DNA of 64,000 nucleotides, taken from NCBI GenBank assembly GCA_964643135.1, contig CAZXPC010000003.1:6152-70151 (forward strand). The letters run 5' to 3'. Shown here in pieces: positions 16,817 to 53,966 of this stretch; position 1 is the stretch's first letter, and every line of letters starts with the position of its first letter. This stretch comes from an uncultured Candidatus Saccharibacteria bacterium. Its GTDB lineage: Bacteria; Patescibacteriota; Minisyncoccia; UBA6257; Colwellbacteraceae. The translations under genes and the position numbers were made by a program. The notes below the pieces were generated by a model that ran no database searches, was not told the origin of the DNA, and worked only from the letters and a program-made list of their open reading frames with translations.

Positions 16817-19264
16817 TTGAAGTTGTATATGGTCATTTTACTAATTTCATTAATTTTAGCGGCGGCCGTTTTGGCGGGAGTCGTGTTTTTCTTGGTCGGC
16901 AAGAAAAGATTGGTGGCCATGGTCACGAGATCGCTGAACTCGAGATTAATTTCGGTTTCGTTGCCCAAGAATTTGGACAAAGAACAGAAGCCAGACAAAG
17001 AAATAATCGCGCCGATGGAACAGTTCTATAGCGCGCTCGGAAGCTTGCACCTCAAAAAAGAGAAATGGTGGGCGCCGAAGCAATACATTGTTTTTGAACT
17101 GGCGGTGCCTCATATCGGGGAACAGATTTCTTTCTATGTTTCAGCCAGAAGCCGGATCATGGCTGATATTCAAAAACAGATCTACGCTTATTTCCCGAAA
17201 GCACAGATTAGCGAGATTGAAGATTATAATATTTTTAACCCGACCGGAGTTTCGGTTGGATCATTTGTGAAATTAGAGCACTCGAGCTCTTTGCCGGTCA
17301 GAACCTACAAGGAGATGGAGACCGATCCGCTCCGCGAAATTACCAATGCCCTTTCAAAATTAAAAGAAGTGGGGGAGGGCGCGGCTTTGCAGCTGGTTCT
17401 CAGACCTGCGAATAAGAGAAATCGGAGCAAGGGAATGGCGATCGAGCATCTTCTACGCCAAGGTAAAACCGTGGAAGGAGCGATGAAAGAAGTCGAAAGA
17501 GGCATTGTTTCAGGCGTCTTAAGAGAACTTTTTTACCCGACCAAGAAAGAAGAGCCCAAGACGGTGCAGCCGCCGATAAAAGTTTCGGAAGATCTAATCA
17601 AGCAGGTTGAGAATAAAATCTCTAAGCCCCAATTCGATGTGAATATCCGTTTAGCGGCCTCAGCTAAAGAGTATCGTGAGGCGAATGACATTTTGCGTCA
17701 GCTCCAGAACGCCTTTTCGCAGTTTAATAATCCCGCCCTGAATCAGTTCGATATTATTGAGCCCAACCCGCGCTCTTTAAAGAAACTGTTCTTTAATTTT
17801 TCATATCGGATGTTCGATGAAAAGCAAAAAATGATCTTGTCTTCAGATGAATTGACCGGTATTTATCATTTTCCGAACACCAAACTTGAGACGCCGAGAA
17901 TTAGAGAGACCAAGTCTAAAGTTTCGGAACCGCCGGCAGAATTGCCGCGCGAAGGCCTTTTGATCGGTAAAAATATTTATCGCGGCGAGGATCGGCCCAT
18001 ATACATGGCCAAAGACGACCGGCGTCGGCACCTCTATATAATCGGACAAACTGGAACCGGTAAGAGTAAGGAGATTCAGAGCATGATTATCCAGGACATT
18101 AGGAATGGCGAAGGCGTCGGGCTCATTGATCCGCACGGCGACATCGCTGAAGATGTTTTAGGCTTTATACCGGAGGAAAGGTACAAAGACGTTGTTTTGA
18201 TCGATCCTTCTAACCTGGCTATGCCGGTTGGGCTTAATATGCTCGAGTTCGACCCGAAATTCCCTGAGCAAAAAACTTTTGTGATTAACGAGCTCATGAA
18301 TATTTTTGACAAGCTCTACGATTTGAAAGCGACCGGCGGGCCGATCTTTGAGCAATATACCCGCAATGCTTTGCAACTCTTAATGGAATACCCGGAGCGG
18401 GGATACACAATTCTGGAAATCCCGCGCGTTTTGGCTGACAAGGAATTCCGAAAAGGCTTGCTCGCAACATGTACTAATATTTTGGTTAAAGATTTCTGGG
18501 AAAAAGAGGCTGAAAAAGCTGGCGGGGAAGCTTCGCTCCAGAATTTGGTTCCTTACATTACTTCCAAATTCAACGTCTTCTTGGGCAACGACTATATCCG
18601 GCCGATTATCGCCCAGTCCAAGAGCACGATCCACTTCCGCGAAATCATGGATGAGAAAAAAATCTTGATTGTTAATTTGACGAAAGGACGGTTGGGAGAT
18701 ATCAACGCCTCGCTTTTGGGAATGATCGTAATCGGCAAGATATTAAAGGCGGCCTTTTCACGAGTCGACATTAAAGATGAGAATTTGAGGAAAGATCTTT
18801 ATTTGTATATCGACGAGTTCCAAAATTTTGCCACCGATTCGATTGCCACCATTTTATCCGAAGCCCGCAAGTACAGGTTAGATTTGATTATTGGCCACCA
18901 ATTTATTGAGCAACTAAAGAAAGAGATTAAAGATGCGGTTTTCGGTAACGTCGGCAATATCATGGCCCTCCGGGTTGGCGCAACCGATGCAGAATTTCTG
19001 GCCAAGCAATTTGAGCCGGTCTTCGATCAGAACGATTTGGTTAATATTGATAACTATCACGCTTATGTGAAACTTTTGATAAATGGAAAGACCACGAAGC
19101 CTTTCTCGATTGAATTTTATCCTCCGGAAAAGGGCGTTACAGGGTTGGCGGACAATATTAGGAAGCTCTCATCTCTTAAATACGGCCGCGAAAGGGCGGT
19201 AGTCGAGAAAGAAATTATGCTTCGCCTGAGACCCGAGTATAAACCGGCGGAGCCGGGGGTCTAA
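16817..19264 (+). CDS. Membrane-anchored FtsK/HerA-superfamily ATPase of the type IV secretion type (VirB4/VirD4/TraG-like)
   Basis: N-terminal TM helix. Walker A HLYIIGQTGTGKSK at about aa 410, followed by IDPHGD. Walker B LYLYIDEFQNF. Length is 815 aa. Confidence 0.7.
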   Translation: MKLYMVILLISLILAAAVLAGVVFFLVGKKRLVAMVTRSLNSRLISVSLPKNLDKEQKPDKEIIAPMEQFYSALGSLHLKKEKWWAPKQYIVFELAVPHIGEQISFYVSARSRIMADIQKQIYAYFPKAQISEIEDYNIFNPTGVSVGSFVKLEHSSSLPVRTYKEMETDPLREITNALSKLKEVGEGAALQLVLRPANKRNRSKGMAIEHLLRQGKTVEGAMKEVERGIVSGVLRELFYPTKKEEPKTVQPPIKVSEDLIKQVENKISKPQFDVNIRLAASAKEYREANDILRQLQNAFSQFNNPALNQFDIIEPNPRSLKKLFFNFSYRMFDEKQKMILSSDELTGIYHFPNTKLETPRIRETKSKVSEPPAELPREGLLIGKNIYRGEDRPIYMAKDDRRRHLYIIGQTGTGKSKEIQSMIIQDIRNGEGVGLIDPHGDIAEDVLGFIPEERYKDVVLIDPSNLAMPVGLNMLEFDPKFPEQKTFVINELMNIFDKLYDLKATGGPIFEQYTRNALQLLMEYPERGYTILEIPRVLADKEFRKGLLATCTNILVKDFWEKEAEKAGGEASLQNLVPYITSKFNVFLGNDYIRPIIAQSKSTIHFREIMDEKKILIVNLTKGRLGDINASLLGMIVIGKILKAAFSRVDIKDENLRKDLYLYIDEFQNFATDSIATILSEARKYRLDLIIGHQFIEQLKKEIKDAVFGNVGNIMALRVGATDAEFLAKQFEPVFDQNDLVNIDNYHAYVKLLINGKTTKPFSIEFYPPEKGVTGLADNIRKLSSLKYGRERAVVEKEIMLRLRPEYKPAEPGV

Positions 19265-21139: not shown

Positions 21140-21793
21140 TTATAGCTTAAAATAAGAATTTTGCGGGCTAGGATGAGGCTCGTCTAAGAAAAGCAGGCTC
21201 TCCGGAGATTCTCGTTCGAGGCTGTTTCCTTCAGGCGTTGATTTGGTATAAGCGACAGTTCCGACGTTTGCACCCTCAGGGTTAACGAGATAAATTACGG
21301 CCCCGTCGTTAGGAAGAGGCGCCGATCTTTTAACATCGGCGTTAGGAGAGGCGGAGTAACCGTTAAAACCGATTAAAAAGAAGCCGTGGTTTTTGATGGA
21401 GGTTAGATCTGCTTTGCCGCCGCCGATTTTGGCGAGCGATGTGCCGCTGCCGCCCGTGGCCAGAATTCGCAGGGACCAGCCGGTTAGATCAACCATGATA
21501 TCGTTGGGGTTGTAGAGCTCGATAAACTCTTGGCCCGCATCGCCCCCGGCCGGATTAAAGAGGATTTCATTAATTATGATATTCTTCGGCGGATTTATCT
21601 TTTTGGGTTTTTGAACTGGGAGAATTTTGGTTTTCGACGGTAGTTTGGGCGAAGTTGGCAAAGTTTGAGTCGAAGACTTGTTTTGAGGCTGGTTTTTAGG
21701 TTCGGCCGGACCTAAGAAAATTGCAACCATCAGAAAAATTAACCCGGCTGTTAAAATTAATAGATATTTTCCGAGCTGCTGCATTGAGCGCAA
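21140..21793 (-). CDS. Lamin tail domain (LTD) protein with an N-terminal TM and a Pro-rich linker
   Basis: INEILFNPAGGDAGQEFIELYNPNDIMVDLTGWSL matches the LTD consensus. Confidence 0.7.
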   Translation of the reverse strand: MRSMQQLGKYLLILTAGLIFLMVAIFLGPAEPKNQPQNKSSTQTLPTSPKLPSKTKILPVQKPKKINPPKNIIINEILFNPAGGDAGQEFIELYNPNDIMVDLTGWSLRILATGGSGTSLAKIGGGKADLTSIKNHGFFLIGFNGYSASPNADVKRSAPLPNDGAVIYLVNPEGANVGTVAYTKSTPEGNSLERESPESLLFLDEPHPSPQNSYFKL

Positions 21794-34702: not shown

Positions 34703-35119
34703 GTGATGTTAAACTTTCTAATCAATATTGCTCACGCTTTTGATCAGCCCACCGGGAGCATAGTTACTTGCGGCCCGGCTGATGCGTCGGGTCATTATCC
34801 CAACGGCAATTACACCGGGCCTTGTGACGCCGGTGCTTTTTGGGGGCTCGTTAATACACTTATAAATTACGCAATTTGGATCGGTATTGTGGCGGTTGGC
34901 TTGTCGGTAGTATTCGCCGGGGTGATGTTTTTGACTTCCGCCGGCTCGGGCGAGAAGACCAGCGCTGGGAAACGCGCCGTAACAGCCGCGGTTGTCGGCC
35001 TAGTTATAACTTTGACCGCTTGGATAATTGTTAATACAATTATATCGTTCCTGTTGCCGAACTGTACTGGGCATTGGAATATATTCAATAATGGGACCAG
35101 CAGCCTAACATGCTCTTAA
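34703..35119 (+). CDS. TrbC/VirB2-type T4SS pilin-like protein, paralog 1
   Basis: Two hydrophobic helices separated by the short polar loop TSAGSGEKTSAGKR. Cys-containing N- and C-terminal tails. Same architecture as the next three ORFs. Confidence 0.6.
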   Translation: MMLNFLINIAHAFDQPTGSIVTCGPADASGHYPNGNYTGPCDAGAFWGLVNTLINYAIWIGIVAVGLSVVFAGVMFLTSAGSGEKTSAGKRAVTAAVVGLVITLTAWIIVNTIISFLLPNCTGHWNIFNNGTSSLTCS

Positions 35120-35541
35120 AATTAATAAATAAAACTAGATATCTTTGGCTGGTCTTAGTCGGCTGGGCAGTCCTGCCGGCAGCCTTGGCCGCGGGGACAA
35201 CTTTTTGCGACCCCATCGCGGGCTGCAACGGAACTTCCACGACTATTCCGGATCTTTTAGTCAAGATGGCCAGCTACCTGACTATTCTGGCTATTCCGGT
35301 TTTGGCGATCATGATTTTGTACGGAGCTTTTACCATCATGACTTCCGAAGGCAACAGCGAGCATTATAAAAAGGGGCAGAGGATTATTGTTTACGCTATC
35401 GTTGGTTTCGTGATCATCGCGATCGGCGGCGGAATAGGATATATCATTAATGATATTTTGACCGGCGGGCCGGCGGCTAACCCTTGCAGCCAATTCGTAG
35501 TCGGATCGCCGCAATATAATAGCTGCATAGTGGCTCATTAA
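35110..35541 (+). CDS. TrbC/VirB2-type T4SS pilin-like protein, paralog 2
   Basis: Signal peptide ending AALAAG. Helix-loop(TSEGNSEHYKKGQR)-helix core. Cys pairs at both ends. Confidence 0.6.
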   Translation: MLLKLINKTRYLWLVLVGWAVLPAALAAGTTFCDPIAGCNGTSTTIPDLLVKMASYLTILAIPVLAIMILYGAFTIMTSEGNSEHYKKGQRIIVYAIVGFVIIAIGGGIGYIINDILTGGPAANPCSQFVVGSPQYNSCIVAH

Positions 35542-35559
35542 GGAATCAAAGCTAAACTT

Positions 35560-35925
35560 ATGAAAAAATATTTAATTATTCTGAGTCTGCTGGCCGCACT
35601 TCTGATTGGTTTCGCCCCCAGCGCCCTAGCGGCTGACTGCGAGTATCCGGCGACCCAGGTTATTAACGGACAAACGGTGCCGTGTCCCATCAGGCATCTT
35701 TCTGGCTTCGTAGATTTTCTGACCACTATTTTCAATATCTTTTTCGCGCTAATGATTATTGCCGCCTCTTTCACTTTTGTTTATGCGGCCTTTCTCTACA
35801 TCACTTCCGAAGGCATGATGGAAGAAATCAGGAAGGTTAAAAGAATGCTGATCTACGCTATGATCGCCCTCGTTATTGCCGTTTTCGCCTGGGGGTTGCC
35901 GAGAGTTATTATAAGCTTTCTCTAG
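35560..35925 (+). CDS. TrbC/VirB2-type T4SS pilin-like protein, paralog 3
   Basis: Signal peptide ...PSALAADC. Helix-loop(TSEGMMEEIRKVKR)-helix. C-terminus WGLPRVIISFL. Confidence 0.65.
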   Translation: MKKYLIILSLLAALLIGFAPSALAADCEYPATQVINGQTVPCPIRHLSGFVDFLTTIFNIFFALMIIAASFTFVYAAFLYITSEGMMEEIRKVKRMLIYAMIALVIAVFAWGLPRVIISFL

Positions 35926-36050
35926 GTTGTCCTATATCTATTTCTTTACGGCCCAAGTGACTTATGCTAATATTTCAAGCAATGGAAAGGTCGAGTTTTA
36001 AAGATTATTTATCCGGACTTTTTAGATTAAAACAGATTAAAAAAGATAAA

Positions 36051-36413
36051 ATGAAGAAATTAATACTTTTGTCAGTTTTAGTGTTGGGACTTTTGGCGGT
36101 TGCGGCTGCACCTAGCGCTTTGGCGGCGGTTGGCTGTCCTTTGCCTCCTTGCGGTTCTGACGTCAGCCCTACGACTGGACCAGCTTTTACCGACTTGATC
36201 CAGACTATTTTTAACGTAGTTTTCGGCATCTTGGTAATAGTGGCAGCATTCTTTTTGCTTTTTGCAGCTTTTGAATACATCACTGCTCAGGGCGAACAGG
36301 AGAAAATCCACAAGGCTAAGAACACAATTGTCTACGCGATTGTCGCTCTAGTTGTGGCTATTCTAGCCTGGGGTCTTCCGAGAGTTGTGCTCAGCTTCTT
36401 CGGCGTTCACTAA
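36051..36413 (+). CDS. TrbC/VirB2-type T4SS pilin-like protein, paralog 4
   Basis: Signal peptide ...PSALAAVGC. Helix-loop(TAQGEQEKIHKAKN)-helix. C-terminus WGLPRVVLSFF, near-identical to paralog 3. The ORF-track start at 35964 is an upstream extension. Confidence 0.65.
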   Translation: MKKLILLSVLVLGLLAVAAAPSALAAVGCPLPPCGSDVSPTTGPAFTDLIQTIFNVVFGILVIVAAFFLLFAAFEYITAQGEQEKIHKAKNTIVYAIVALVVAILAWGLPRVVLSFFGVH

Positions 36414-36523: not shown

Positions 36524-37286
36524 TACGATCGTGAACATAGTGTATCTTCTCGAGTTTCTGGCTAATTTATTTTGAGCGGCTGTTTTTCACTGCAGATTCC
36601 TTGCCTGCCGGTTCTTCATTTTCTATTTACTATATTTATATATTATCTTCACGATCGTGAAGATAATATATGTGTATGAGGGGAGATCTAAAGAATAAAA
36701 TTCTAGAAAATATTTTGGAGACGGCCATTTCGCCCGCAGAACTATTTGAGGCTGTGATCAGGGCCGGCTATGGTGCATCTGTGCGTGGAATTGATTGGCA
36801 GCTGGAGAAGGTTAGAGCTAGAAGGCAAGATGTTTTAAATATCTTGGCCAAGAAGAAAAGTTTCTACAATACTCTCCAGAGGCTAAAGAGGGATGGTTTG
36901 ATTGAAAGATCGGGCAAGGGCTGGATAGCGACTAAATTAGGTCGAGGGATCTTTACGGTCTCTGATAACAGGCCTTCCCGATCGGCATATCCATCGACAG
37001 AAAAGACCAGCTATACAACGATTATCATATTCGATGTGCCAGAAACGCATCGATACAAGCGCGATTGGCTGAGAGATAGCCTTAAAAATATGGGTTTCAA
37101 GATGGTTCAAAAGAGTGTTTGGTCGGCTCAAGTTAAGATTCCACGCGCTTTTATAGATGATTTAGAAAGTTTTGCTCTTATTGACTGCGTCGATATATTT
37201 CAGGCGACCAAGCTTGGCTCGCTGGCTAAATCCTAAAAAAACTTAAATGATTAAGATCAATATATATTATTCACGATCGTGAGAAA
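36524..37286. promoter_or_regulatory. Three copies of the palindromic operator TTCACGATCGTGAA bracketing the gene 36670-37236
   Basis: Sites at about 36526-36539 and about 37272-37285, plus the extended perfect 22-bp palindrome TATCTTCACGATCGTGAAGATA at 36645-36666. The extended copy overlaps a GATAAT -10-like hexamer 4 bp before the ATG. Confidence 0.7.
36670..37236 (+). CDS. Winged-helix (PaaX-N-like) DNA-binding domain fused to a C-terminal Cas2-like domain; putative autoregulator
   Basis: N-terminal half (..SFYNTLQRLKRDGLIERSGKGWIATKLGRG) looks like a wHTH. C-terminal half (TIIIFDVPETHRYKRDWLRDSLKNMGFKMVQKSVWSAQVKIPRAFIDDLESFALIDCVDIF) follows the Cas2 core pattern [YF]D[VI]..R.R..L...G.R.Q.SV[FW]...D.V.I[FY]. 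Palindromic sites flank the gene. Confidence 0.6.
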   Translation: MCMRGDLKNKILENILETAISPAELFEAVIRAGYGASVRGIDWQLEKVRARRQDVLNILAKKKSFYNTLQRLKRDGLIERSGKGWIATKLGRGIFTVSDNRPSRSAYPSTEKTSYTTIIIFDVPETHRYKRDWLRDSLKNMGFKMVQKSVWSAQVKIPRAFIDDLESFALIDCVDIFQATKLGSLAKS

Positions 37287-37374: not shown

Positions 37375-37455
37375 GCTGAGGTGGTGAAATGGCATACACG
37401 CGGAGCTTAGGACTCCGTGCCGTAAGGCGTGCGGGTTCAAGTCCCGCCCTCAGCA
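37375..37455 (+). tRNA. tRNA-Leu (anticodon TAG), class II with a long variable arm
   Basis: Acceptor GCTGAGG/CCTCAGC. 3-bp D stem. Anticodon stem CGGAG/CTCCG, loop CTTAGGA. Variable arm TGCCGTAAGGCGT. T-arm GCGGG-TTCAAGT-CCCGC. Confidence 0.85.
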
Positions 37456-37556
37456 CAAGGACTTGAACGGGAAAGGGGTCGGGAAAACGGGAGTTTTCCC
37501 GTGGCGGAAGTATTGAAACCGCTGGGTTTCAAGGAGCGAATGCTTAATGAGCGACG

Positions 37557-37581
37557 TTCAATTGCCCGCCCTCAGCACATA
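37557..37581 (+). repeat. Direct repeat of the 3' 25 nt of tRNA-Leu (23/25 identical), 100 bp downstream of the intact gene. att-like remnant
   Basis: TTCAATTGCCCGCCCTCAGCACA here versus TTCAAGTCCCGCCCTCAGCACA at 37433-37457. A strong 9-bp hairpin (CGGGAAAAC-GGGA-GTTTTCCCG) lies between them. Confidence 0.7.
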
Positions 37582-38031: not shown

Positions 38032-39045
38032 CTAGGCCCGCGTCGGGTCGCAGTTCACGACCTTGCCCGCTACGCTCGAGTAGAGGTAGAAGTCCGGGCC
38101 GACGTTGTCGAGGTGCGCGTCCGAAGACACGAACATCCACCCTGACTGGACCCAGGAGTAACCCAGGTCGTTCGGGTGTGCCGCGACTGCGCTGTCGTAG
38201 TCGGCTTTCGACTGGTAGAAGCGCGCGACTCCGGCTCCCTGGGCATTGCACGTGAGTCTGGTGACTCCCGTGTCGTGCCCGGTGAAGCGGAACGGTCCGC
38301 TCAACCCTTGCGCCAGCGTGATGACGTCGGCGCCGTAGTTGAGGTAGGTTCCTTTCACTGGGGTGGCCGGGGCTCCGCTGCCGGATGTCGTCACGTTGTT
38401 GATCTTCTCGATCGTGATGTGCCAGTTGGTCGTCCAGGGGTTGTAGTCCCGGAAGGCCATATGGTCAGCGTTCGGGTAGTTCGAGGCGTTCTTGAAGCCC
38501 GAACAGTCCGAGAAGATCATTCCCGAGAGAGCATTCGCTTCCCCAGGAGCGTTGTCGAGCGCGCAGCTGCCCAGAGGAACTGCCGTGGTCAGGTTGACCG
38601 CGAGTCCGCCGAAGCTGCCGATCGAAGCCACGACGAAGTGTTCTCCGAGCTTGCGAACGCTGACTTGGTTCGGAGCGGTGTAGTTCGTTGCGTTCCACCA
38701 CTGGTCTAGATTTGTCACCTTCGCGTCCTTGAAGTCCGCGATGGTGCCGATGCCGCCATCGAGCGTCCACGATTCCGTTGCCGCAGCTGGAGGGCTGGGC
38801 GCAGAATCCGCGGGGTTGTCGTTCGCGTGGTTCGCCGCGACAGCTGCCGCGATGTCCTCCGCGCTTGCCGGGGGAGTCGTCGGGATCTGGTGGAGGAGCT
38901 CGTTGTTCTCCTTGCCGATATCGATCAGCTTGTTGGCCTGGTCTGCGGTCATGCCGTCGGATTCCTTCTTTGCCGCACATCCCGCGAGGGAAATGGTCAG
39001 GAATAGCGTCGCCACCAGGGCGATCATCTTGGGGTTGGGCTTCAT
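38032..39045 (-). CDS. Lipoprotein (lipobox LAGC), hypothetical, high-GC (about 62%) gene
   Basis: N-terminus MKPNPKMIALVATLFLTISLAGC gives a signal peptide plus lipobox Cys. No recognisable domain. Several long antisense shadow ORFs overlap it. Confidence 0.65.
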   Translation of the reverse strand: MKPNPKMIALVATLFLTISLAGCAAKKESDGMTADQANKLIDIGKENNELLHQIPTTPPASAEDIAAAVAANHANDNPADSAPSPPAAATESWTLDGGIGTIADFKDAKVTNLDQWWNATNYTAPNQVSVRKLGEHFVVASIGSFGGLAVNLTTAVPLGSCALDNAPGEANALSGMIFSDCSGFKNASNYPNADHMAFRDYNPWTTNWHITIEKINNVTTSGSGAPATPVKGTYLNYGADVITLAQGLSGPFRFTGHDTGVTRLTCNAQGAGVARFYQSKADYDSAVAAHPNDLGYSWVQSGWMFVSSDAHLDNVGPDFYLYSSVAGKVVNCDPTRA

Positions 39046-39257
39046 TTCAAGTGTCCTCCCGTTATCAAGGTGCTGGCTTAACAGAGTCTATACTCCCGTT
39101 AGGGAGCTAGACTAGCTAGCACCTCAAACGAGTGTGGGACTATGTAAACATACATACGCTATTCTTGTCAAGTCCCCAGGAAACTTAGTGGCCTTTATAG
39201 GCCTTGACAAGACATTGGAGATCTGTTAATCTAAACCGTCAAAATATAAATAAGACT

Positions 39258-41387
39258 ATGATGATAAACCCAAAAAACAAGCAGACCGCCGGTTTCGGAG
39301 CGATGCAAGTCGTAATTGTAGTCGGCGTGGTGGCCGTTCTGGCCTTGTTATTCTTCGGTTTGCCGGGCGGAGTTAAGGATTTCTTCGCTAAATTAAAGGG
39401 TGGGACCGCTTCGATCTCCAGCTTTGGTGATTTTCAGAAAGACGCCAACAATAATATCAGCATCGACAGCGTGGCGGACACGATGGTTAAGGATTTGATG
39501 TCGGTTCAGACTATGGCTAAGGCGGAAACTGGGGACAAGAAAGACGGCATCTGTTTCAAGAATCCGGCTGCCGAAACCGATTTCTATAATATAGTTTCTA
39601 ACATCTCCGGCACCGACGCTTGCGATAGCGCGGCTTCGATTGTCAATGTCGTTTCTTTGCCGAGCGGGATCAGTATTGTAGATCCAGCCACTGGCAGCAA
39701 TAAATCTATTGTTTTCCAGAAAGACGGCACCTCTGTTGCCTCAACCGATCAAACTATTAAAATTGCGTCTTCAACTGAAACTCGAATTGTGACGGTTACG
39801 CCGTCCGGCAACGCAACTTTCAGCGTCGGCGCTCCTAGCACGGCTTCAGCCGGGGCTTCATCGGGATCGGGCGGGACCACAACTATCATCAGGACAGTAA
39901 CCGCGGATAATACCGGCCAGATTAATGCTCTTAGCAATGTGGCGAACGGCTTGGCCAATGTTTTGGGTTCGATTAGGACCCTGCAGAATCAAAACACTGT
40001 TGTCACTGTCCCGGTTCCTGTTCAGGTCCCTGTGCCGGTCAATGTTACTTCGGGCGCTCCTTCTCAGCCTTCGAATCTTTACGCTCAAGGAAGCTACGGC
40101 TATATTGCATTGAATTGGACGGTTTCAGCCGGCGCTATCTCGACCTATAAAATTTATCGCAGCCAATATCCCGGCCAGGAGTCGTTCTTAGCCTCGGTTG
40201 GAGCGATTAATTATTACGCCGATTACAGCGTGGCCGCCGGTTCGACCTACTACTACAAAGTTACGGCCGTCAATACAGCAGGGCAGGAGAGTCCGCTTTC
40301 AAACGAAGCGTACTCGGCCGCTTATGTTCAGAGTCCTGTTACTTATTACACACCCGTTCCCGTTCCGGCTCCGGTTCCGCAGCAGCCTCAGATTTTTCAA
40401 CCATCGGTGCCGACTATTGTTTCGGCTGCCTATTACCCGGGCAACGGGGTTGTCTTGAACTGGCTCGCTCCACAGTCTAACGGTAATTCTTATATCGTCG
40501 GCTACAGGGTTTATCGCAATATTTCGGTGGTAAATTCCAGCTTGATTTACGATTCAACTTCTCAGAGCACAACCTACACCGATTCAAGCCTGGCGCCGAA
40601 CACTAACTATTGCTACCAGATTAGCGCCAAAAATCAGCAGTACGAAAGCCCACGGTCAGCCGCGCAATGTGTTTATACTTATGTAGCTCAGACCCCATCA
40701 CCTACTCCTAGCCCGAGCCCAGCTCCTCAGACCCCGACTTACTACTCTCCTTATCCGTCATCGACGCCTCCTGCGACTTACTACTACACTCCCGGAACTT
40801 CTACGAACCAGACGCCTACTTACTATTCTCCGACTTCGTACTCGAACCAGCCGGCTACTTATTACACTACTAGCGGCTCTTCAACACCGGCGGCCACTTA
40901 CTACACAACCGCTCCGAACGGAACTCAAGCTGCTACTTACTATACGACTAGCGGTTCGGGTACTCCGTCGGCAACCTACTACACGACTTCTTCGACATCG
41001 GGTACGCCATTAGGAACCTATTACGCAACGTCAGGATCTACTAGCGGCACTCCATCGGCCACTTACTACACAACTAGTGGTTCTTCAACCCAGGCAGGCA
41101 CGTATTACGGTACCCAAACTTCGACCACTCCAGGAGCGACTTATTACACAACCAGCGGCAGCACCAGCTCATCGCCGGCCACTTATTACTCAACTGGCTC
41201 TACCGCTACTCCATCAGCAACTTATTATTCGACAGCTAGCGGTTCGGGTACGCCGAGCGCTACTTATTACACTACTAGCGGCTCTTCAACGCCGGCTGGA
41301 ACTTATTACACAACCGCTCCGAGCGGAACTCAAGCCGCGACTTATTACAGTTCTTCATCAACTCCATCGGCGACTTACTACCCCTAA
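39258..41387 (+). CDS. Large secreted/surface protein with two fibronectin type III-like domains and a C-terminal Tyr/Thr/Ser-rich tandem-repeat region (ATYYTTSGSSTP-like, about 20 units)
   Basis: N-terminus KQTAGFGAMQVVIVVGVVAVLALLFFGL is a signal anchor, possibly pilin-like. FN3-like blocks (..LNWTVSAG..YKIYRS..YYYKVTAVNTAGQES.. and ..LNWLAPQSNG..YRVYRN..YCYQISAKN..). Imperfect tandem repeats at about 40740-41390. The TTGACA-17-TAATCT promoter is at 39204-39232. The ORF-track start at 39204 is an upstream TTG extension. Confidence 0.7.
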   Translation: MMINPKNKQTAGFGAMQVVIVVGVVAVLALLFFGLPGGVKDFFAKLKGGTASISSFGDFQKDANNNISIDSVADTMVKDLMSVQTMAKAETGDKKDGICFKNPAAETDFYNIVSNISGTDACDSAASIVNVVSLPSGISIVDPATGSNKSIVFQKDGTSVASTDQTIKIASSTETRIVTVTPSGNATFSVGAPSTASAGASSGSGGTTTIIRTVTADNTGQINALSNVANGLANVLGSIRTLQNQNTVVTVPVPVQVPVPVNVTSGAPSQPSNLYAQGSYGYIALNWTVSAGAISTYKIYRSQYPGQESFLASVGAINYYADYSVAAGSTYYYKVTAVNTAGQESPLSNEAYSAAYVQSPVTYYTPVPVPAPVPQQPQIFQPSVPTIVSAAYYPGNGVVLNWLAPQSNGNSYIVGYRVYRNISVVNSSLIYDSTSQSTTYTDSSLAPNTNYCYQISAKNQQYESPRSAAQCVYTYVAQTPSPTPSPSPAPQTPTYYSPYPSSTPPATYYYTPGTSTNQTPTYYSPTSYSNQPATYYTTSGSSTPAATYYTTAPNGTQAATYYTTSGSGTPSATYYTTSSTSGTPLGTYYATSGSTSGTPSATYYTTSGSSTQAGTYYGTQTSTTPGATYYTTSGSTSSSPATYYSTGSTATPSATYYSTASGSGTPSATYYTTSGSSTPAGTYYTTAPSGTQAATYYSSSSTPSATYYP

Positions 41388-41389
41388 TT

Positions 41390-42331
41390 TTATTTTGGCT
41401 GACTTCTCCTTTTGGAATGAAAAGCTGAATGAACCTCCTTCAGCTCTTTATTCGTGACATGGGTGTAAATCTGGGTGGTCGAAACATTGCTGTGGCCCAA
41501 GAGTTCTTGAACTGATCTCAAGTCTGCGCCATTCATCAGCAAGTCGGTGCCGAATTGGTGCCGCAAAGTGTGAGGTGTTACTTTCTTAGGGATGCCGGCC
41601 GCTTTGGCGTAGTGGGCGATTAGGCGCTCAATACTGCGCGTGGTGAGCCGGCCGATCGGTTTTGGGTCGGCGGCTTTGGTGAAGCTAATAAACAAGGCTT
41701 CTTCGGCGTCGAAACGTTTGTCGAGGAAGGCTTTAATTGATTTTTTGGCCTCGTCGGAGAGGAATACTACTCGCAATTTGTCGCCCTTGCCTCGGATGGT
41801 CAATTCGCCGCGCTCGAAATTGTTGTGTCGGTCGAGACTGGCCAATTCGGAGACGCGCAAGCCGGTCGCGAAAAGAGTTTCTAGGATAGCGCGGTCACGT
41901 AAAACTCTAATATCTGAGCCTTTGGGCGCGGCCAAGAGGCGTTGCAGATCAGTATTATCCATAATTTGAATCTGGCGGGCCGGGATTTTTGGCAGTTCAA
42001 TTTTGTCGGGGGAGACAACCTTATAATCGCGTTTCATTAGGAACTTAAGAAAATTGCGGAGAATAATGATGTAGTACGATTGGGTGATTTTCTTGATCGG
42101 GGGAGTGGAGCTGGCGAGTTTGATACGAAATTCGCGGATAGCTTCCTCGGTAATATCGGAGATATTTTTAACGCCGGATGTCTCGGCGAACTTCCTTAAA
42201 TAACGCTCATAATTAGCCCTGGTGCGGGGGGATTTGTTTTTTTCAATCTCTAAATAGTCGAGATATTGCTTGATCAACTTCTGAACTTCAGTCATATTAG
42301 CTGGATTATACCATTCCCCGTTATGCGACAC
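41390..42331 (-). CDS. xerC: Tyrosine site-specific recombinase (XerC/XerD-like)
   Basis: N-terminal SAM-like core-binding domain. C-terminal catalytic HTLRHQFGTDLLMNGADLRSVQELLGHSNVSTTQIYTHV (R..H..R..H/Y signature). Length is 313 aa. Confidence 0.85.
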   Translation of the reverse strand: MSHNGEWYNPANMTEVQKLIKQYLDYLEIEKNKSPRTRANYERYLRKFAETSGVKNISDITEEAIREFRIKLASSTPPIKKITQSYYIIILRNFLKFLMKRDYKVVSPDKIELPKIPARQIQIMDNTDLQRLLAAPKGSDIRVLRDRAILETLFATGLRVSELASLDRHNNFERGELTIRGKGDKLRVVFLSDEAKKSIKAFLDKRFDAEEALFISFTKAADPKPIGRLTTRSIERLIAHYAKAAGIPKKVTPHTLRHQFGTDLLMNGADLRSVQELLGHSNVSTTQIYTHVTNKELKEVHSAFHSKRRSQPK

Positions 42332-52204: not shown

Positions 52205-52276
52205 GCCCTTGTCGTTCAATGGACAGGACAGAGGTTTCCTAAACCTTAAATGGAGGTTCGATTCCTCCCGAGGGCA
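52205..52276 (+). tRNA. tRNA-Arg (anticodon CCT)
   Basis: Acceptor GCCCTTG/CGAGGGC. Anticodon stem GAGGT/ACCTT, loop TTCCTAA. T-arm GGAGG-TTCGATT-CCTCC. Confidence 0.7.
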
Positions 52277-52338
52277 CAAAATTGGCAAATTTGAATAATT
52301 TATTTTACACTGGTAAAACCTCCGGAACGAGGTTAGAC

Positions 52339-52410
52339 CCTCCTGTAGTTCAATGGATAGAATAGGGAACTTCTAATTCCTTGATCGAGGTTCGATTCCT
52401 CGCGGGAGGA
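52339..52410 (+). tRNA. tRNA-Arg (anticodon TCT)
   Basis: Acceptor CCTCCTG/CGGGAGG. Anticodon stem GGGAA/TTCCT, loop CTTCTAA. T-arm CGAGG-TTCGATT-CCTCG. Confidence 0.7.
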
Positions 52411-52420
52411 CAAGCAGCGA

Positions 52421-52491
52421 CGGGCCGTCGTATATTGGTAGTATACCTGTTTTGGGAACAGGCGGGCTGGGTTCGATTCCCAGCGGCCCGA
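52421..52491 (+). tRNA. tRNA-Pro (anticodon TGG)
   Basis: Acceptor CGGGCCG/CGGCCCG. Anticodon stem CCTGT/ACAGG, loop TTTGGGA. T-arm CTGGG-TTCGATT-CCCAG. The D stem has G-U pairs. Confidence 0.65.
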
Positions 52492-52557
52492 CATCTTAAA
52501 AATAAATAGAGATTTGTAGCAAAAAATAATATATTGTTATAGTATTGTTTTCATCAT

Positions 52558-52629
52558 GGTGCCTATAGCTCAATGGTAGAGCGCCTCCCTGTGGAGGAGG
52601 ATACACGGGTTCGATCCCCGTTAGGCACC
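52558..52629 (+). tRNA. tRNA-His (anticodon GTG) with an encoded G-1
   Basis: Extra 5' G before acceptor GTGCCTA/TAGGCAC. Discriminator C. Anticodon stem CCTCC/GGAGG, loop CTGTGGA. T-arm ACGGG-TTCGATC-CCCGT. Confidence 0.85.
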
Positions 52630-52660
52630 CAATTATAAACTGTCGGCCGAATTAAAAAGA

Positions 52661-52689: not shown

Positions 52690-52772
52690 GGGAATGTTGG
52701 GGTGACAACAACTTGACGACCAAATCCAAACCGAAAGAGGGAATCTTCGATTCGCTCTTGAGGAGCGAGCCG

Positions 52773-53966
52773 ATGTTCAGAAACAAGGAAGTCCTGCGGT
52801 CTAGCTACATGCCTGACGAGCTGCCGCACCGGACGACCCAGATCAATCAGCTCGCGGCGATCCTCGTTGGGGCGCTCAAGGGTGAAACGCCCTCGAACGT
52901 CCTTATCTACGGGCAGTCGGGAACTGGGAAAACCGCGGTGGCGCGCTTCGTGGGCAACGAGCTGCAGAAGACGGGGAAGGAGAAGGACCAGACGGTCTTT
53001 TTCGTCTATATCAACTGCCAGCTCGTCGACACGCAGTATCGAGTCCTCACGCACATCGCGAACCATTTCATCGAGAACTGGGACGACCGCATCCCGTTCA
53101 CGGGCTGGCCGACGGACGAGGTCTACAACAAGCTGAAGCAGAAGATCGACGAGAAGGGAGGCGCCTGCGTCATCGTCTTGGACGAAATCGACAAACTCGT
53201 TTCCAAGGCCGGCGACGACATCCTCTACGCACTCTTGTCGATCAACAGCGACCTGAAGAGCGCGAAGGTGTCCGTGATCGGCATCTCGAACGACCTGAAG
53301 TTCACTGAGCTTCTCGACCCGCGCGTGAAGTCGCGCCTGGGCGAGGAGGAGGTGATCTTCCCTTCGTACGACGCCGTGGAGCTCCAGGACATCATGAAAC
53401 AGCGCGCAGAGATGGCGTTTCAGGGAGGTTCGCTGGAAGACAGCGTCATGCCTCTTTGCGCCGTTTTGGCCGCACAGGAGCATGGCGATGCTCGTCGAGC
53501 GCTGGACCTTCTTCGCGTCGCCGGCGAATTGGCGGAGCGGGAGGGCCAGAAGTCAGTGAGTGAGAAGTACGTGCGGAAGGCTCAGAACAAGATCGAGGGC
53601 GACCGCGTGACCGAGGTCGTGCGCACGCTTCCCACGCAGAGCAAGATCGTGCTTCTCAGTGCGATCTTCGGCGAAGAATCGGGAACGAAGAGTCTCACGA
53701 CCGGCGAGGTGTACGACACGTACCGCGAACTTTGTGAGGAAGCCCGCCAGGACATCCTCACGCAGCGCCGCGTTACGGACCTCATCTCGGAACTCGACAT
53801 GCTCGGAATCTTCCGGGCGCGGGTTGTCTCCAAGGGGCGTTACGGACGCACCAAGGAGATCGAGCTGGCCATTCCGGTTGAAGAGACCAAGGCTGTGCTC
53901 TGCGAGGATCCTGTCGTGGGGCCAGTCATGGGGTTCCGCCCAAAGAAGCAATCGAGGCTCTTCTAG
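52773..53966 (+). CDS. Orc1/Cdc6-family AAA+ ATPase (archaeal/eukaryotic-type replication initiator homolog), high-GC islet
   Basis: N-terminal MFRNKEVLRSSYMPDELPHRTTQINQL follows the Orc1/Cdc6 IF.N.E.L...Y.P..LPHR..Q pattern. Walker A LIYGQSGTGKTAVA. Walker B VIVLDEIDKL. Sensor-1 ISN. C-terminal winged helix. About 60% GC against about 40-45% in the flanks. An alternative TTG start at 52713 (ORF-track start) would add 20 aa. Confidence 0.8.
   Translation: MFRNKEVLRSSYMPDELPHRTTQINQLAAILVGALKGETPSNVLIYGQSGTGKTAVARFVGNELQKTGKEKDQTVFFVYINCQLVDTQYRVLTHIANHFIENWDDRIPFTGWPTDEVYNKLKQKIDEKGGACVIVLDEIDKLVSKAGDDILYALLSINSDLKSAKVSVIGISNDLKFTELLDPRVKSRLGEEEVIFPSYDAVELQDIMKQRAEMAFQGGSLEDSVMPLCAVLAAQEHGDARRALDLLRVAGELAEREGQKSVSEKYVRKAQNKIEGDRVTEVVRTLPTQSKIVLLSAIFGEESGTKSLTTGEVYDTYRELCEEARQDILTQRRVTDLISELDMLGIFRARVVSKGRYGRTKEIELAIPVEETKAVLCEDPVVGPVMGFRPKKQSRLF

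What the first reader, a model, noticed from the sequence alone, without database searches (positions are those of the whole stretch)
39258..41387. Large surface protein combining a pilin-like signal anchor, two FN3 domains and a long Tyr-rich tandem repeat tail
The N-terminus KQTAG-FGAMQVVIVVGVVAVLALL resembles a class-III (prepilin-type) signal with a cleavage-site Gly, but it lacks the Glu at +5. The C-terminal 230 aa consist of about 20 imperfect 12-13-aa repeats of the type ATYYTTSGSSTP. Tyr-rich repeats of this kind are unusual. They could mediate adhesion, cross-linking or phase-variable length changes, because the DNA repeats at 40740-41390 are recombination-prone. In an episymbiotic CPR organism a variable adhesin on an acquired islet would be biologically meaningful.
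Basis: partly seen in the sequence, partly recalled or inferred. Interest (0 to 1): 0.5.

Follow-up and report, generated by a model that had tools for sequence, protein, structure and literature searches.

The report
Pilin-headed adhesin with tyrosine-rich tail
This gene of an ultrasmall (Patescibacteria) bacterium encodes a surface protein whose head is a type IV pilus subunit of the GspH/FimU kind that has lost the usual glutamate, followed by two FN3 spacer domains and a tail of 17 tyrosine-pair repeats, so it is probably a pilus-borne or membrane-anchored adhesin, which is a new variant of the known "modular pilins" rather than a new kind of system.

Summary
ORF 39258/39261-41387 (+) encodes 708-709 aa with four parts: a pilin-like N-terminus (…KQTAG|FGAMQ + 23 hydrophobic residues), two FN3 domains, Pro-rich linkers, and a 219-aa tail with 17 TYY motifs spaced 11-15 aa.

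Two interpretations fail. The tail DNA is not a recombination-prone tandem array: TRF finds nothing, units average 58% identical, and the longest exact repeat is 32 nt. The gene is not on an acquired islet: it lies convergent with xer in six related genomes and has native codon composition. Only the neighbouring 62% GC gene is anomalous.

Across the six orthologues the pilin module is conserved and the C-terminus is rebuilt each time. Four of the six carry Tyr-rich tails of different sequence.

Verdict: a modular GspH-type minor pilin with Glu5 replaced by Gln or His. Cleavage, pilus incorporation and adhesion are inferred, not shown.

The parts
39165..39238 (+). Promoter region. TTGACA (39205-39210), 17 nt, TAATCT. 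An inverted TTGTCAA lies upstream at about 39167-39173 and is the likely -35 of the divergent upstream gene.
   Evidence: Read from the sequence. The -35 TTGACA is invariant, and the T..TA...T of the -10 is conserved at fixed spacing in all six orthologous loci. CTTGTCAAG is conserved in 5 of 6.
39261..39293 (+). Leader peptide of a degenerate class III (prepilin-type) signal: MINPKNKQTAG, ending in Gly-1. An alternative start is the ATG at 39258.
   Evidence: Gly-1 and Phe+1 are invariant in the six orthologues, and Gly-1 is kept in four more distant modular relatives. They align with the G|F of 41 canonical pilins. Cleavage itself is inferred.
39294..39362 (+). Alpha1-N hydrophobic segment FGAMQVVIVVGVVAVLALLFFGL (23 aa), with Gln at +5 where pilins have Glu.
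   Evidence: Alignment A2. Position +5 is Q or H in all six orthologues and E in 41 of 55 family representatives. AF2 predicts a helix at 14-32.
39363..39458 (+). Clade-specific insertion within alpha1 (PGGVKDFFAKLKGGTASISSFGDFQKDANNNI). It is the most conserved stretch of the close clade.
   Evidence: It is absent from the canonical small pilins in A2. F31-K44 and A50-F58 are invariant between the window and the L001 orthologue. AF2 gives a short helix at 36-48 and then low confidence.
39459..39830 (+). Alpha1-C helix plus the beta-sheet head of a GspH/FimU/FimT-type minor pilin, with the conserved pair Cys98/Cys121 and the motif DGICFKNP…DFYNIVS.
39909..39992 (+). Conserved amphipathic helix (NTGQINALSNVANGLANVLGSIRTLQNQ) after a Ser/Gly linker. 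It may be a coiled coil or oligomerisation element.
   Evidence: AF2 predicts a helix at 218-244 with pLDDT 79-89. It is conserved in P0002 and P0029-P0032. The heptad reading is my inference.
39993..40058 (+). Pro/Val-rich linker 1 (TVVTVPVPVQVPVPVNVTSGA).
   Evidence: Translation. TRF finds a 12-nt period with 3.2 copies at 40002-40040.
40059..40322 (+). FN3 domain 1.
   Evidence: Pfam fn3, 2 stretches, E 8.4e-11. It aligns with the FN3 domains of P0002.
40323..40409 (+). Pro/Val-rich linker 2.
   Evidence: Translation. TRF finds a 6-nt period at 40353-40379.
40410..40679 (+). FN3 domain 2.
   Evidence: The best Pfam fn3 stretch covers aa 388-468 of the 709-aa form.
40680..40727 (+). Pro/Thr/Ser linker (YVAQTPSPTPSPSPAP).
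   Evidence: Translation.
40728..41387 (+). Tyr-rich repeat tail: 17 TYY motifs at 11-15-aa spacing (consensus about TTSGSxTPSATYY). It ends …SATYYP-stop, with no C-terminal anchor or sorting signal.
   Evidence: The DNA units are degenerate. Comparable Tyr-rich tails of different sequence occur in orthologues P0030, P0031 and P0032. They occur nowhere else in 1.42 Mb of related loci.

Best explanation
The gene encodes a modular type IV minor pilin.

Shown:
- The first ~190 aa are a pilin module of the GspH/FimU/FimT ('H') type, with a degenerate class III signal: an 11-aa basic leader ending in Gly, Phe at +1, and 23 hydrophobic residues.
- Gln replaces the canonical Glu5. The five orthologues carry His or Gln at that position.
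- The module is followed by a conserved helix, two FN3 domains separated by Pro-rich linkers, and a 219-aa tail of 17 evenly spaced Tyr-Tyr motifs in a Ser/Thr/Gly/Pro matrix.
- The gene is a native, promoter-bearing gene at a conserved locus in a small Paceibacteria lineage.
- Its C-terminal display region is remodelled between species, while the pilin module is kept.

Inferred:
- The protein is inserted N-in/C-out.
- The leader is probably removed by a prepilin peptidase after Gly11.
- The pilin module is taken up by the type IV filament machinery. A PilB/GspE-type assembly ATPase is in the window.
- Because Glu5 is missing and the C-terminal load is bulky, the protein most likely sits at or near the filament tip.
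- The FN3 domains act as a stalk.
- The Tyr-rich tail acts as a multivalent, probably disordered and possibly glycosylated, 'sticker-spacer' adhesive that contacts a host cell or surface.
For: Pilin module:
- A profile of the N-terminal 245 aa against 1.84 billion representatives gives 56 hits. Of 55 listed, 41 have canonical G/A|[FLMV]xxxE signals.
- Of 51 aligned members, 38 hit Pfam N_methyl and 17 hit GspH.
- In alignment A2 the target's G-1, F+1 and Q5 fall in the G, F and E5 columns.
- Pfam GspH scores 22.4 bits against a cut-off of 21 on the N-terminal domain.
- The closest canonical small relative (P0037) lies in a minor-pilin operon of a Parcubacteria MAG.

Machinery and locus:
- A PilB/GspE-type ATPase lies at 3054-4712 (T2SSE 1e-117; PilB/GspE E about 1e-133).
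- Six orthologues occupy the same locus with a conserved TTGACA promoter.
- Gly-1 and Phe+1 are invariant and a polar residue is kept at +5. A mere membrane anchor would not be expected to show this.

Tail:
- Tyr-rich tails recur in 4 of 6 orthologues with different unit sequences. They are confined to this family in 1.42 Mb of related DNA.

Precedents:
- Modular pilins are widespread, FN3 is among their commonest added domains, and many are from CPR (PMC8179133).
- Pilins that lack Glu5 (GspK, S. sanguinis PilA) are placed at the tip (PMC9934059).
- In the Saccharibacterium TM7x the large minor pilins PilX1/PilX2 lack a predicted PilD signal, and PilX2 is needed for host binding (PMC11623550).
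Against: - Glu5 is absent, and Pfam N_methyl does not hit the target.
- A ~30-residue clade-specific insertion interrupts alpha1 between the hydrophobic segment and alpha1-C. This could be incompatible with normal packing in a filament.
- The gene is not in a pilus operon. The 64-kb window holds no prepilin peptidase, PilC or other pilin.
- H-type minor pilins normally keep Glu5. It is the K type that lacks it.
- Nothing here shows cleavage, polymerisation, surface display, adhesion or a ligand.
Confidence: 0.55

Rival explanations
1. The protein is a pilin-derived but no longer pilus-borne surface protein. The former class III signal now serves as an uncleaved N-terminal membrane anchor. The protein would then be a bitopic 'fibrillar adhesin' standing on the cell membrane, with the ex-pilin head, FN3 stalk and Tyr-rich tail projecting outward.
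For: - Glu5 is lost in all six orthologues.
- Alpha1 carries a clade-specific, highly conserved insertion.
- The gene is isolated from any pilus operon, with no PilD, PilC or other pilins in the window.
- The architecture of anchor, stalk and distal sticky region matches the fibrillar-adhesin layout (PMC9210967).
Against: - Gly-1 and Phe+1 are strictly conserved and a polar residue is kept at +5. A plain anchor has no obvious need for these.
- The pilin head is under strong conservation (pLDDT above 90; invariant P142, F152, G156, G183 across 51 sequences).
- Tip pilins without Glu5 and large CPR minor pilins without recognisable PilD signals are documented (PMC9934059, PMC11623550).
Confidence: 0.3
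2. The protein is a structural or priming H-type minor pilin. Its main job would be to link a tip complex to the major pilin during filament initiation, as GspH and FimU do. The FN3 domains and tail would be a passive decoration, such as a glycosylated spacer or shield, rather than an adhesin.
For: - The fold and sequence family are GspH/FimU/FimT.
- Two of six orthologues (P0002, P0029) have no Tyr-rich tail, only more FN3 domains. The tail is therefore dispensable for whatever the conserved module does.
Against: - H subunits keep Glu5 because further pilins stack below them. This clade does not keep it.
- A canonical H-type pilin exists in a minor-pilin operon in a related MAG. That suggests this gene is an extra, specialised paralogue.
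- Rapid remodelling of the C-terminus, with Xer 77-89% identical against 44-61% for the pilin module and non-alignable C-termini, is typical of ligand- or environment-facing parts.
Confidence: 0.1
3. One reading: the protein is a phase- or length-variable adhesin carried on a horizontally acquired islet, and it changes repeat number by recombination between DNA repeats.
For: - One 89-nt pair is 90% identical with a 32-nt exact core, 405 bp apart. It could occasionally mediate an in-frame 135-aa deletion or duplication.
- tRNA-Leu, a 15-bp duplication of its 3' end and a 62% GC gene lie just upstream.
Against: - TRF finds no tandem array.
- The units average 58% DNA identity, and the TYY codons themselves are synonymously mixed (TAT 9 and TAC 8 at the first Tyr). 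This indicates old repeats kept by selection on the protein.
- The gene is syntenic in six genomes, has a conserved promoter and has native GC3.
- The adjacent recombinase is the Xer of a block conserved across Paceibacteria.
Confidence: 0.04
4. The protein is an ordinary secreted or wall-associated protein with a Sec signal peptide cut by signal peptidase I.
For: It has a basic N-region followed by a hydrophobic stretch, which is generic to all signal types.
Against: - The hydrophobic stretch is 23 residues, which is transmembrane length.
- There is no AXA-like site. The only small residues after it are in LPGG, with Pro at -3 (sequence).
- The segment aligns with class III signals and is followed by a pilin fold.
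Confidence: 0.02

Closest known systems
Modular type IV pilins (S. sanguinis PilB/PilC; survey of more than 1,200 proteins in Raynaud et al. 2021, PMC8179133)
   Same: An N-terminal pilin module carries extra C-terminal domains for display. FN3 (IPR003961) is among the 15 commonest added domains, and many examples are from CPR phyla (Wolfebacteria, Parcubacteria, Falkowbacteria). They are expected to sit at the tip and to mediate adhesion.
   Different: Those proteins were collected by the canonical IPR012902/N_methyl motif with Glu5. This protein lacks Glu5 and is not recognised by that motif. It also has an insertion inside alpha1, a conserved post-head helix and a low-complexity Tyr-rich repeat tail in place of a terminal globular binding domain.
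GspH/EpsH, FimU and FimT minor (pseudo)pilins (Pfam PF12019; PDB 4dq9, 4ipu, 2knq, 7qyi)
   Different: Those proteins are 130-190 aa, keep Glu5 and are encoded in pilus or T2SS operons. This one is 708 aa, has Gln5, stands alone next to xer, and carries FN3 domains and a 219-aa tail.
Glu5-less tip pilins (GspK/PilX type; S. sanguinis PilA) and TM7x PilX1/PilX2
   Same: Glu5 is missing or the class III signal is unrecognisable, the proteins are bulky, and a tip location is proposed. TM7x PilX2 is needed for host binding in a Patescibacterium (PMC9934059, PMC11623550).
   Different: The head fold here is H-type, not K-type. The accessory parts are FN3 plus a Tyr-rich tail rather than an alpha-domain, beta-jelly roll or beta-propeller. 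There is no functional data.
Tyr-rich repetitive adhesive or cross-linking proteins (mussel foot protein decapeptides, plant extensins, resilin, FUS-like S/Y/G/Q low-complexity domains). This is a resemblance from my own knowledge and was not tested.
   Same: Tyr residues are regularly spaced in a Ser/Thr/Pro/Gly-rich repetitive matrix. Multivalent adhesion, dityrosine cross-linking or self-association are plausible chemistries.
   Different: There is no sequence homology. No tyrosinase or peroxidase was seen nearby. This is a bacterial pilin context. The unit (about TTSGSxTPSATYY) is not a known repeat family, and Pfam and NCBIfam give no hit for the tail.

Membership tests
Type IV pilin (class III signal peptide; Pfam PF07963 N_methyl / IPR012902) | Short hydrophilic leader ending in Gly or Ala, followed by about 21 mostly hydrophobic residues. 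| tested here: met
   MINPKNKQTAG|FGAMQVVIVVGVVAVLALLFFGL. It aligns with the signals of 41 canonical pilins.
Type IV pilin (class III signal peptide; Pfam PF07963 N_methyl / IPR012902) | Glu at position +5 of the mature protein. | tested here: not met
   Gln at +5. The five orthologues have His or Gln.
Type IV pilin (class III signal peptide; Pfam PF07963 N_methyl / IPR012902) | Recognition by the N_methyl profile. | tested here: not met
   There is no PF07963 hit for the target at E up to 1, although 38 of 51 aligned relatives hit it.
Type IV pilin (class III signal peptide; Pfam PF07963 N_methyl / IPR012902) | Pilin fold: a long N-terminal helix packed on an antiparallel beta-sheet. | tested here: met
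   In the AF2 model (pLDDT 82.7) alpha1-C 68-88 packs on strands 94-189. The top structural matches are all minor pilins. Caveat: alpha1 is interrupted by a ~30-aa insertion.
Type IV pilin (class III signal peptide; Pfam PF07963 N_methyl / IPR012902) | Leader removed, and Phe1 methylated, by a prepilin peptidase (PilD, Peptidase_A24). | not testable with these tools
   No A24 peptidase is present in the 64-kb window. The rest of the genome is not available.
Type IV pilin (class III signal peptide; Pfam PF07963 N_methyl / IPR012902) | Type IV filament assembly machinery in the same genome. | tested here: inconclusive
   A PilB/GspE-type ATPase lies at 3054-4712. No PilC, PilM/N/O or other pilin is in the window.
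GspH/FimT/FimU minor pilins (Pfam PF12019) | Profile match at or above the Pfam gathering score. | tested here: inconclusive
   The N-terminal 245 aa alone score 22.4 bits against a cut-off of 21. The full protein scores 20.1 bits, just below. The orthologue scores 17.3 bits at the same profile positions. 17 of 51 relatives match, best E 1.2e-7.
GspH/FimT/FimU minor pilins (Pfam PF12019) | GspH-type two-sheet head structure. | tested here: met
Modular pilins (sense of PMC8179133) | A pilin module followed by one or more domains not specific to pilus biology. | tested here: met
   Pilin module aa 1-190, then two FN3 domains and the repeat tail. Under that paper's operational filter (an IPR012902 hit) the protein would have been missed.
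Fibronectin type III domain (PF00041) | Profile match above the gathering score. | tested here: met
   42.4 bits against a cut-off of 25, E 8.4e-11, two stretches.
Repeat-mediated phase- or length-variable surface gene (contingency locus) | Near-identical tandem DNA repeats able to slip or recombine, and copy-number differences among strains. | tested here: not met
   TRF finds no array. Mean unit identity is 58% and the longest exact repeat is 32 nt. Strain comparison was not possible.
Cargo of a tRNA-linked genomic islet | Atypical composition, patchy presence among relatives, and an island integrase with att repeats bounding the gene. | tested here: not met
   GC3 is 0.47-0.56, against 0.55 for pnp and 0.59 for gyrA. 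The gene is at the same locus in six genomes. The recombinase is Xer in the xer-rpsO-NYN-pnp block conserved in many Paceibacteria. The 15-bp tRNA-Leu repeat pair encloses only about 107 bp, upstream of the gene.

The most novel reading that the evidence does not exclude
The Tyr-Tyr repeat tail would be a new kind of pilus adhesive: an intrinsically disordered 'sticker-spacer' or cross-linkable glue, presented at the tip of a type IV filament by a Glu5-less H-type pilin. An episymbiotic Paceibacterium would use it to attach to its host. The display part would be re-invented in each species (TYY, VYY or YTS tails, or extra FN3 domains) while the pilin carrier and its locus stay fixed. If the clade-specific alpha1 insertion and the Gln/His5 also define a distinct mode of docking into the filament, this would be a new subclass of tip pilin.
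Probability: 0.2. Interest if true: 0.7.

Novelty: new variant of a known kind. Interest (0 to 1): 0.42.

Why it matters
Patescibacteria depend on attachment to host cells, and type IV pili are the best-supported attachment organelles in the few cultivated members (PMC11623550). The pilins involved diverge so fast that standard motif searches miss them.

What this locus offers:
- It is a clear, checkable example. The pilin module is invisible to the N_methyl motif but is recovered by profile and fold comparison.
- It is fixed at one chromosomal position in six related genomes, and its outward-facing part is rebuilt in each species.
- That pattern makes it a candidate determinant of host or surface specificity in Paceibacteria, for which there are almost no experimental handles.
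- It extends the catalogue of modular pilins to Glu5-less, H-type carriers.

The recurring Tyr-rich tails point to a low-complexity, non-globular binding element on a pilin, which has not been described as far as the literature searched here shows.

It does not reveal a new kind of machinery.

Tried and rejected
Searches that led nowhere:
- The word-indexed protein search with the N-terminal 245 aa alone returned nothing, not even the protein itself. The same search with the tail alone did the same.
- The exhaustive profile search then found the family.
- Pattern scans of GTDB representative genomes and JGI metagenomes with the N-terminal alignment found no relative. Strain-level repeat variation therefore could not be examined.
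- The exact-sequence look-up of P0001 found no contig. The cluster look-up gave no name or accession.
- A PDB sequence search with the two-sequence profile gave only noise.

A failed first model:
- AF2 with two sequences gave pLDDT 45 and was not used for fold search.

Readings rejected:
- I considered that the adjacent recombinase plus tRNA-Leu marks an island containing the gene. This is rejected by synteny across Paceibacteria and by the orthologous loci.
- I considered that the upstream 62% GC gene is a conserved partner. The upstream genes are mostly non-homologous among loci, so no functional link is claimed.
- I looked for further pilins or class III signals in the window by regular expression and by a family HMM. 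Only the target was found.
- I looked for Tyr-rich polar segments elsewhere in 1.42 Mb of related loci. They occur only in this family.
- A literature search for tyrosine-rich pilin tails found nothing relevant.

Full report
**What is there**

The + strand carries one long ORF ending at 41387. The first in-frame start listed is TTG 39204. That codon lies inside a promoter-like element: TTGACA at 39205-39210, 17 nt, then TAATCT. The -35 of this element is invariant in all six orthologous loci. The real start is therefore ATG 39258 or 39261, and the database copy of the protein starts at 39261 with 708 aa. In 708-aa numbering the layout is as follows.
- aa 1-11: leader MINPKNKQTAG.
- aa 12-34: hydrophobic FGAMQVVIVVGVVAVLALLFFGL.
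- aa 35-66: an insertion.
- aa 67-88: helix.
- aa 89-190: beta-rich head.
- aa 191-216: Ser/Gly linker.
- aa 217-244: conserved helix.
- aa 245-266: Pro/Val linker.
- aa 267-354: FN3-1.
- aa 355-383: Pro/Val linker.
- aa 384-473: FN3-2.
- aa 474-489: Pro/Thr/Ser linker.
- aa 490-708: Tyr-rich tail.

**The tail**

The tail has 17 TYY motifs, giving 16 units of 11-15 aa, mostly 13, with the consensus TTSGSxTPSATYY. Its composition is T 28%, S 21%, Y 17%, P 10%, A 10% and G 9%. Tyr autocorrelation is 0.63 at lag 13.

- Tandem Repeats Finder reports no array between 40740 and 41390, even at minimum score 30.
- The 39-nt units are on average 58% identical.
- The codons of the conserved TYY are synonymously mixed.
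- The only long similar pair is 89 nt at 90% identity, 405 bp apart, with a longest exact match of 32 nt.

These are old repeats maintained at the protein level. They are not a slippage-prone array. A rare 405-bp in-frame rearrangement remains possible.

**The N-terminus is a real pilin module**

Pfam gives a borderline GspH hit: 20.1 bits on the whole protein, and 22.4 bits against a cut-off of 21 on the first 245 aa. The one full-length homologue from the first search (P0002, 40% identity) hits the same profile positions.

A profile of these two N-terminal domains was searched against 1.84 billion representative proteins and returned 56 hits.
- The nearest are large proteins with the same N-terminal module (P0029-P0033, P0035, P0039).
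- The rest are mostly 140-200-aa proteins with textbook class III signals, such as RG|FTLFEVLMVLVIIG and KG|FTLLEVLLVIAIIG.
- Of 55 listed, 41 have Glu at +5.
- Of 51 aligned members, 38 hit Pfam N_methyl and 17 hit GspH.

In the alignment the target's Gly11, Phe12 and Gln16 fall in the columns of the cleavage-site Gly, Phe+1 and Glu5. The head shares the motif WG[VI]CF[RK]NP…D.Y.IVS…LP.G..F..P…VVF.K..G…I.I…R.I.[IV]T..G.

With this alignment AlphaFold gives pLDDT 82.7, and above 90 for residues 68-190.
- The top four Foldseek hits are all FimU.
- The closest canonical small relative, P0037, lies in a Parcubacteria MAG within a run of genes whose products start with class III signals. That run is a minor-pilin operon and includes two Glu5-less, K-like members.

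The whole first domain is an H-type minor pilin.

**How it departs from canonical pilins**

- Position +5 is Gln. In the five orthologues it is His (4) or Gln (1), while Gly-1 and Phe+1 are invariant.
- The N_methyl profile does not recognise the target.
- The close clade has an insertion of about 30 residues after the hydrophobic segment (LPGGVKDFFAKLKGG…ISSFGDF). This is the best-conserved stretch between orthologues. In the model it separates alpha1-N from alpha1-C.
- A conserved amphipathic helix (aa 217-244) follows the head in all close relatives.

**Genomic setting**

PNPase relatives place the window in Patescibacteria, class Paceibacteria (Parcubacteria). The best matches are 59-61% identical.

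The recombinase at 41390-42331 is XerC/D-like. It belongs to a xer(-)-rpsO-NYN-pnp block that is conserved in dozens of Paceibacteria loci. What lies upstream of xer varies among them.

In six genomes the gene upstream of and convergent with xer is an orthologue of the target: the window, L001 (P0002), L086 (P0029), L083 (P0030), L084 (P0031) and L085 (P0032). Where more flank is visible, the gyrA-SBP-T4SS_pilin array-tRNA-Leu context is also shared.
- Xer is 77-89% identical among these genomes. The pilin module is 44-61% identical. The C-terminal parts cannot be aligned.
- GC3 of the target (0.47-0.56) matches pnp (0.55) and gyrA (0.59).

So the gene is native and fast-evolving, not cargo of an islet. 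The compositionally foreign element is its divergent neighbour (38032-39045, 62% GC). That gene has 62-65% GC counterparts in the other loci, and they are mostly unrelated to one another.

**The display region is rebuilt in each species**

| Orthologue | C-terminal region |
|---|---|
| Window | 2 FN3 + 17 TYY units |
| P0002 | 4 FN3, no Tyr tail |
| P0029 | 3 FN3, no Tyr tail |
| P0030 | No FN3; about 11 units of PGNVYYAPAS… with a 14-17-aa period |
| P0031 | FN3 domains interleaved with Y-T-S-rich low-complexity segments |
| P0032 | 1 FN3 + a short Tyr-rich end |

Tyr-rich polar tails thus recur in four of six orthologues with different unit sequences. This argues that spaced Tyr pairs in a polar matrix are selected for. 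It says nothing direct about what they bind.

**Mechanism**

Shown:
- A pilin module, an FN3 stalk, a repeat tail and no C-terminal anchor.
- A conserved promoter and a conserved locus.
- A PilB/GspE-type assembly ATPase in the window.

Inferred:
- Membrane insertion N-in/C-out.
- Probable cleavage after Gly11 by a prepilin peptidase.
- Uptake into a type IV filament.
- Placement at or near the tip. A Glu5-less subunit cannot neutralise the N-terminus of a subunit above it, which is the argument used for GspK and S. sanguinis PilA (PMC9934059). The load is also bulky, which is the argument used for modular pilins (PMC8179133).
- An adhesive role for the tail.

Precedent in the same phylum: TM7x PilX1 and PilX2 are large minor pilins without a predicted PilD signal, and PilX2 is required for efficient host binding (PMC11623550).

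The main rival is that the module has been exapted as a plain membrane anchor. Loss of Glu5, the alpha1 insertion and the solitary location favour this. Invariant Gly-1/Phe+1 and a retained polar +5 residue argue against it. I put the pilus-borne reading at about 0.55 and the anchored reading at about 0.3.

**Comparison with what is known, and novelty**

Modular pilins are known, are common in CPR, and frequently carry FN3 (PMC8179133). This places the finding within a known kind. The new points are as follows.
- An H-type carrier without Glu5, which motif-based surveys miss.
- The alpha1 insertion and the post-head helix.
- The Tyr-Tyr repeat tail as the distal element.
- One fixed locus whose display part is replaced between species.

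No literature on tyrosine-rich pilin tails was found. I rate it a new variant of a known kind, of moderate interest to pilus and CPR specialists.

**Limits**

- Only 64 kb of the genome is available, and it holds no PilD, PilC or other pilin.
- No strain-level relatives exist in the collections searched.
- The tail was not modelled.
- Several early searches failed for technical reasons.

Noticed in passing
window 52713-53966 (+): A 417-aa ORF lies in a 60% GC stretch (window mean about 47%), right after a cluster of tRNA genes (52205-52630). It matches archaeal/eukaryotic-type Orc1/Cdc6: Cdc6_C 1.5e-30, Cdc6_lid 5.8e-28, plus AAA. This is unexpected in a Patescibacterium and looks horizontally acquired.
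   Followed up: no
window 38032-39045 (-); also L001:4249-5490, L083:3-863, L084:6802-7707, L086:205-1437: The gene divergent from the pilin-like gene is 62-65% GC in all five loci where it is visible, against 40-51% for its neighbours. These genes are mostly not homologous to one another. Only window/L083 share an N-terminal lipoprotein signal region (57% over 60 aa), and L001/L086 are 56% identical. The window copy has a lipobox (LAGC) and no Pfam or NCBIfam hit. It is unexplained why a variable, GC-rich gene always occupies this slot.
   Followed up: partly
window 37443-37457 and 37565-37579: The last 15 nt of tRNA-Leu(tag) (CCCGCCCTCAGCACA) are repeated exactly 122 bp downstream (0.05 expected by chance). 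The sequence after the second copy resembles what follows the tRNA in L001. This looks like the scar of a small insertion or integration at the tRNA 3' end.
   Followed up: partly
window 39165-39212, and orthologous loci (alignment A3): There are back-to-back conserved -35 elements. CTTGTCAAG (TTGACA on the - strand) and CTTGACAAG are separated by a spacer of variable length. The + strand TTGACA is invariant in six loci, and the - strand copy is conserved in five. This suggests divergent promoters shared by the pilin-like gene and the variable GC-rich gene.
   Followed up: partly
window 39363-39458 (aa 35-66 of the target): The clade-specific insertion inside alpha1 (FFGLPxGVKDFFAK…ASISSFGDF) is the most conserved part of the protein among orthologues. 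It has no counterpart in canonical pilins, and its role is unknown.
   Followed up: partly
window 34703-36413 (+) and 16817-19264 (+): Four tandem genes encode T4SS_pilin (PF18895) proteins. An 815-aa VirD4/TraD-like coupling ATPase is also present. This is the Patescibacterial type IV secretion/conjugation-like set. The same pilin array precedes the orthologous loci L001 and L084.
   Followed up: no
window 3054-4712 (+): A solitary PilB/GspE-type assembly ATPase (T2SSE 1e-117; PilB and GspE models about 1e-133) has no PilC, PilD or pilin gene beside it.
   Followed up: partly
window 36670-37236 (+): A 188-aa protein has a Cas2-like / PaaX central domain (PaaX_M 1.6e-12; TIGR01573 cas2 5e-6) just upstream of tRNA-Leu. 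No CRISPR array or other cas gene was noticed nearby.
   Followed up: no
L039:8367-10733 (+): A 788-aa protein in a related Patescibacterium has a fully canonical prepilin signal (NNKG|FTLVEILIYVG; N_methyl 3e-6) and a dockerin/EF-hand-like segment. It is an example of a canonical modular pilin in the same group.
   Followed up: no
L087:710-7641 (+), GCA_001817755.1: A minor-pilin operon in a Parcubacteria MAG contains three products with G|F..E signals (241, 161 and 188 aa). It also has two Glu5-less members (255 aa, and 700 aa with beta-propeller hits) that resemble GspK/PilX-type tip pilins.
   Followed up: partly
window 21140-21793 (-): A 217-aa protein has a lamin tail domain (LTD, 5e-13), next to two GT2 glycosyltransferases.
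   Followed up: no
P0033 (1071 aa, relative): A more distant family member carries Cys/Tyr/Pro-rich repeats (…PCPTGY[AT]GTYPNCVPPQQ…) between FN3 domains. This is another unusual low-complexity insert in this pilin family.
   Followed up: no
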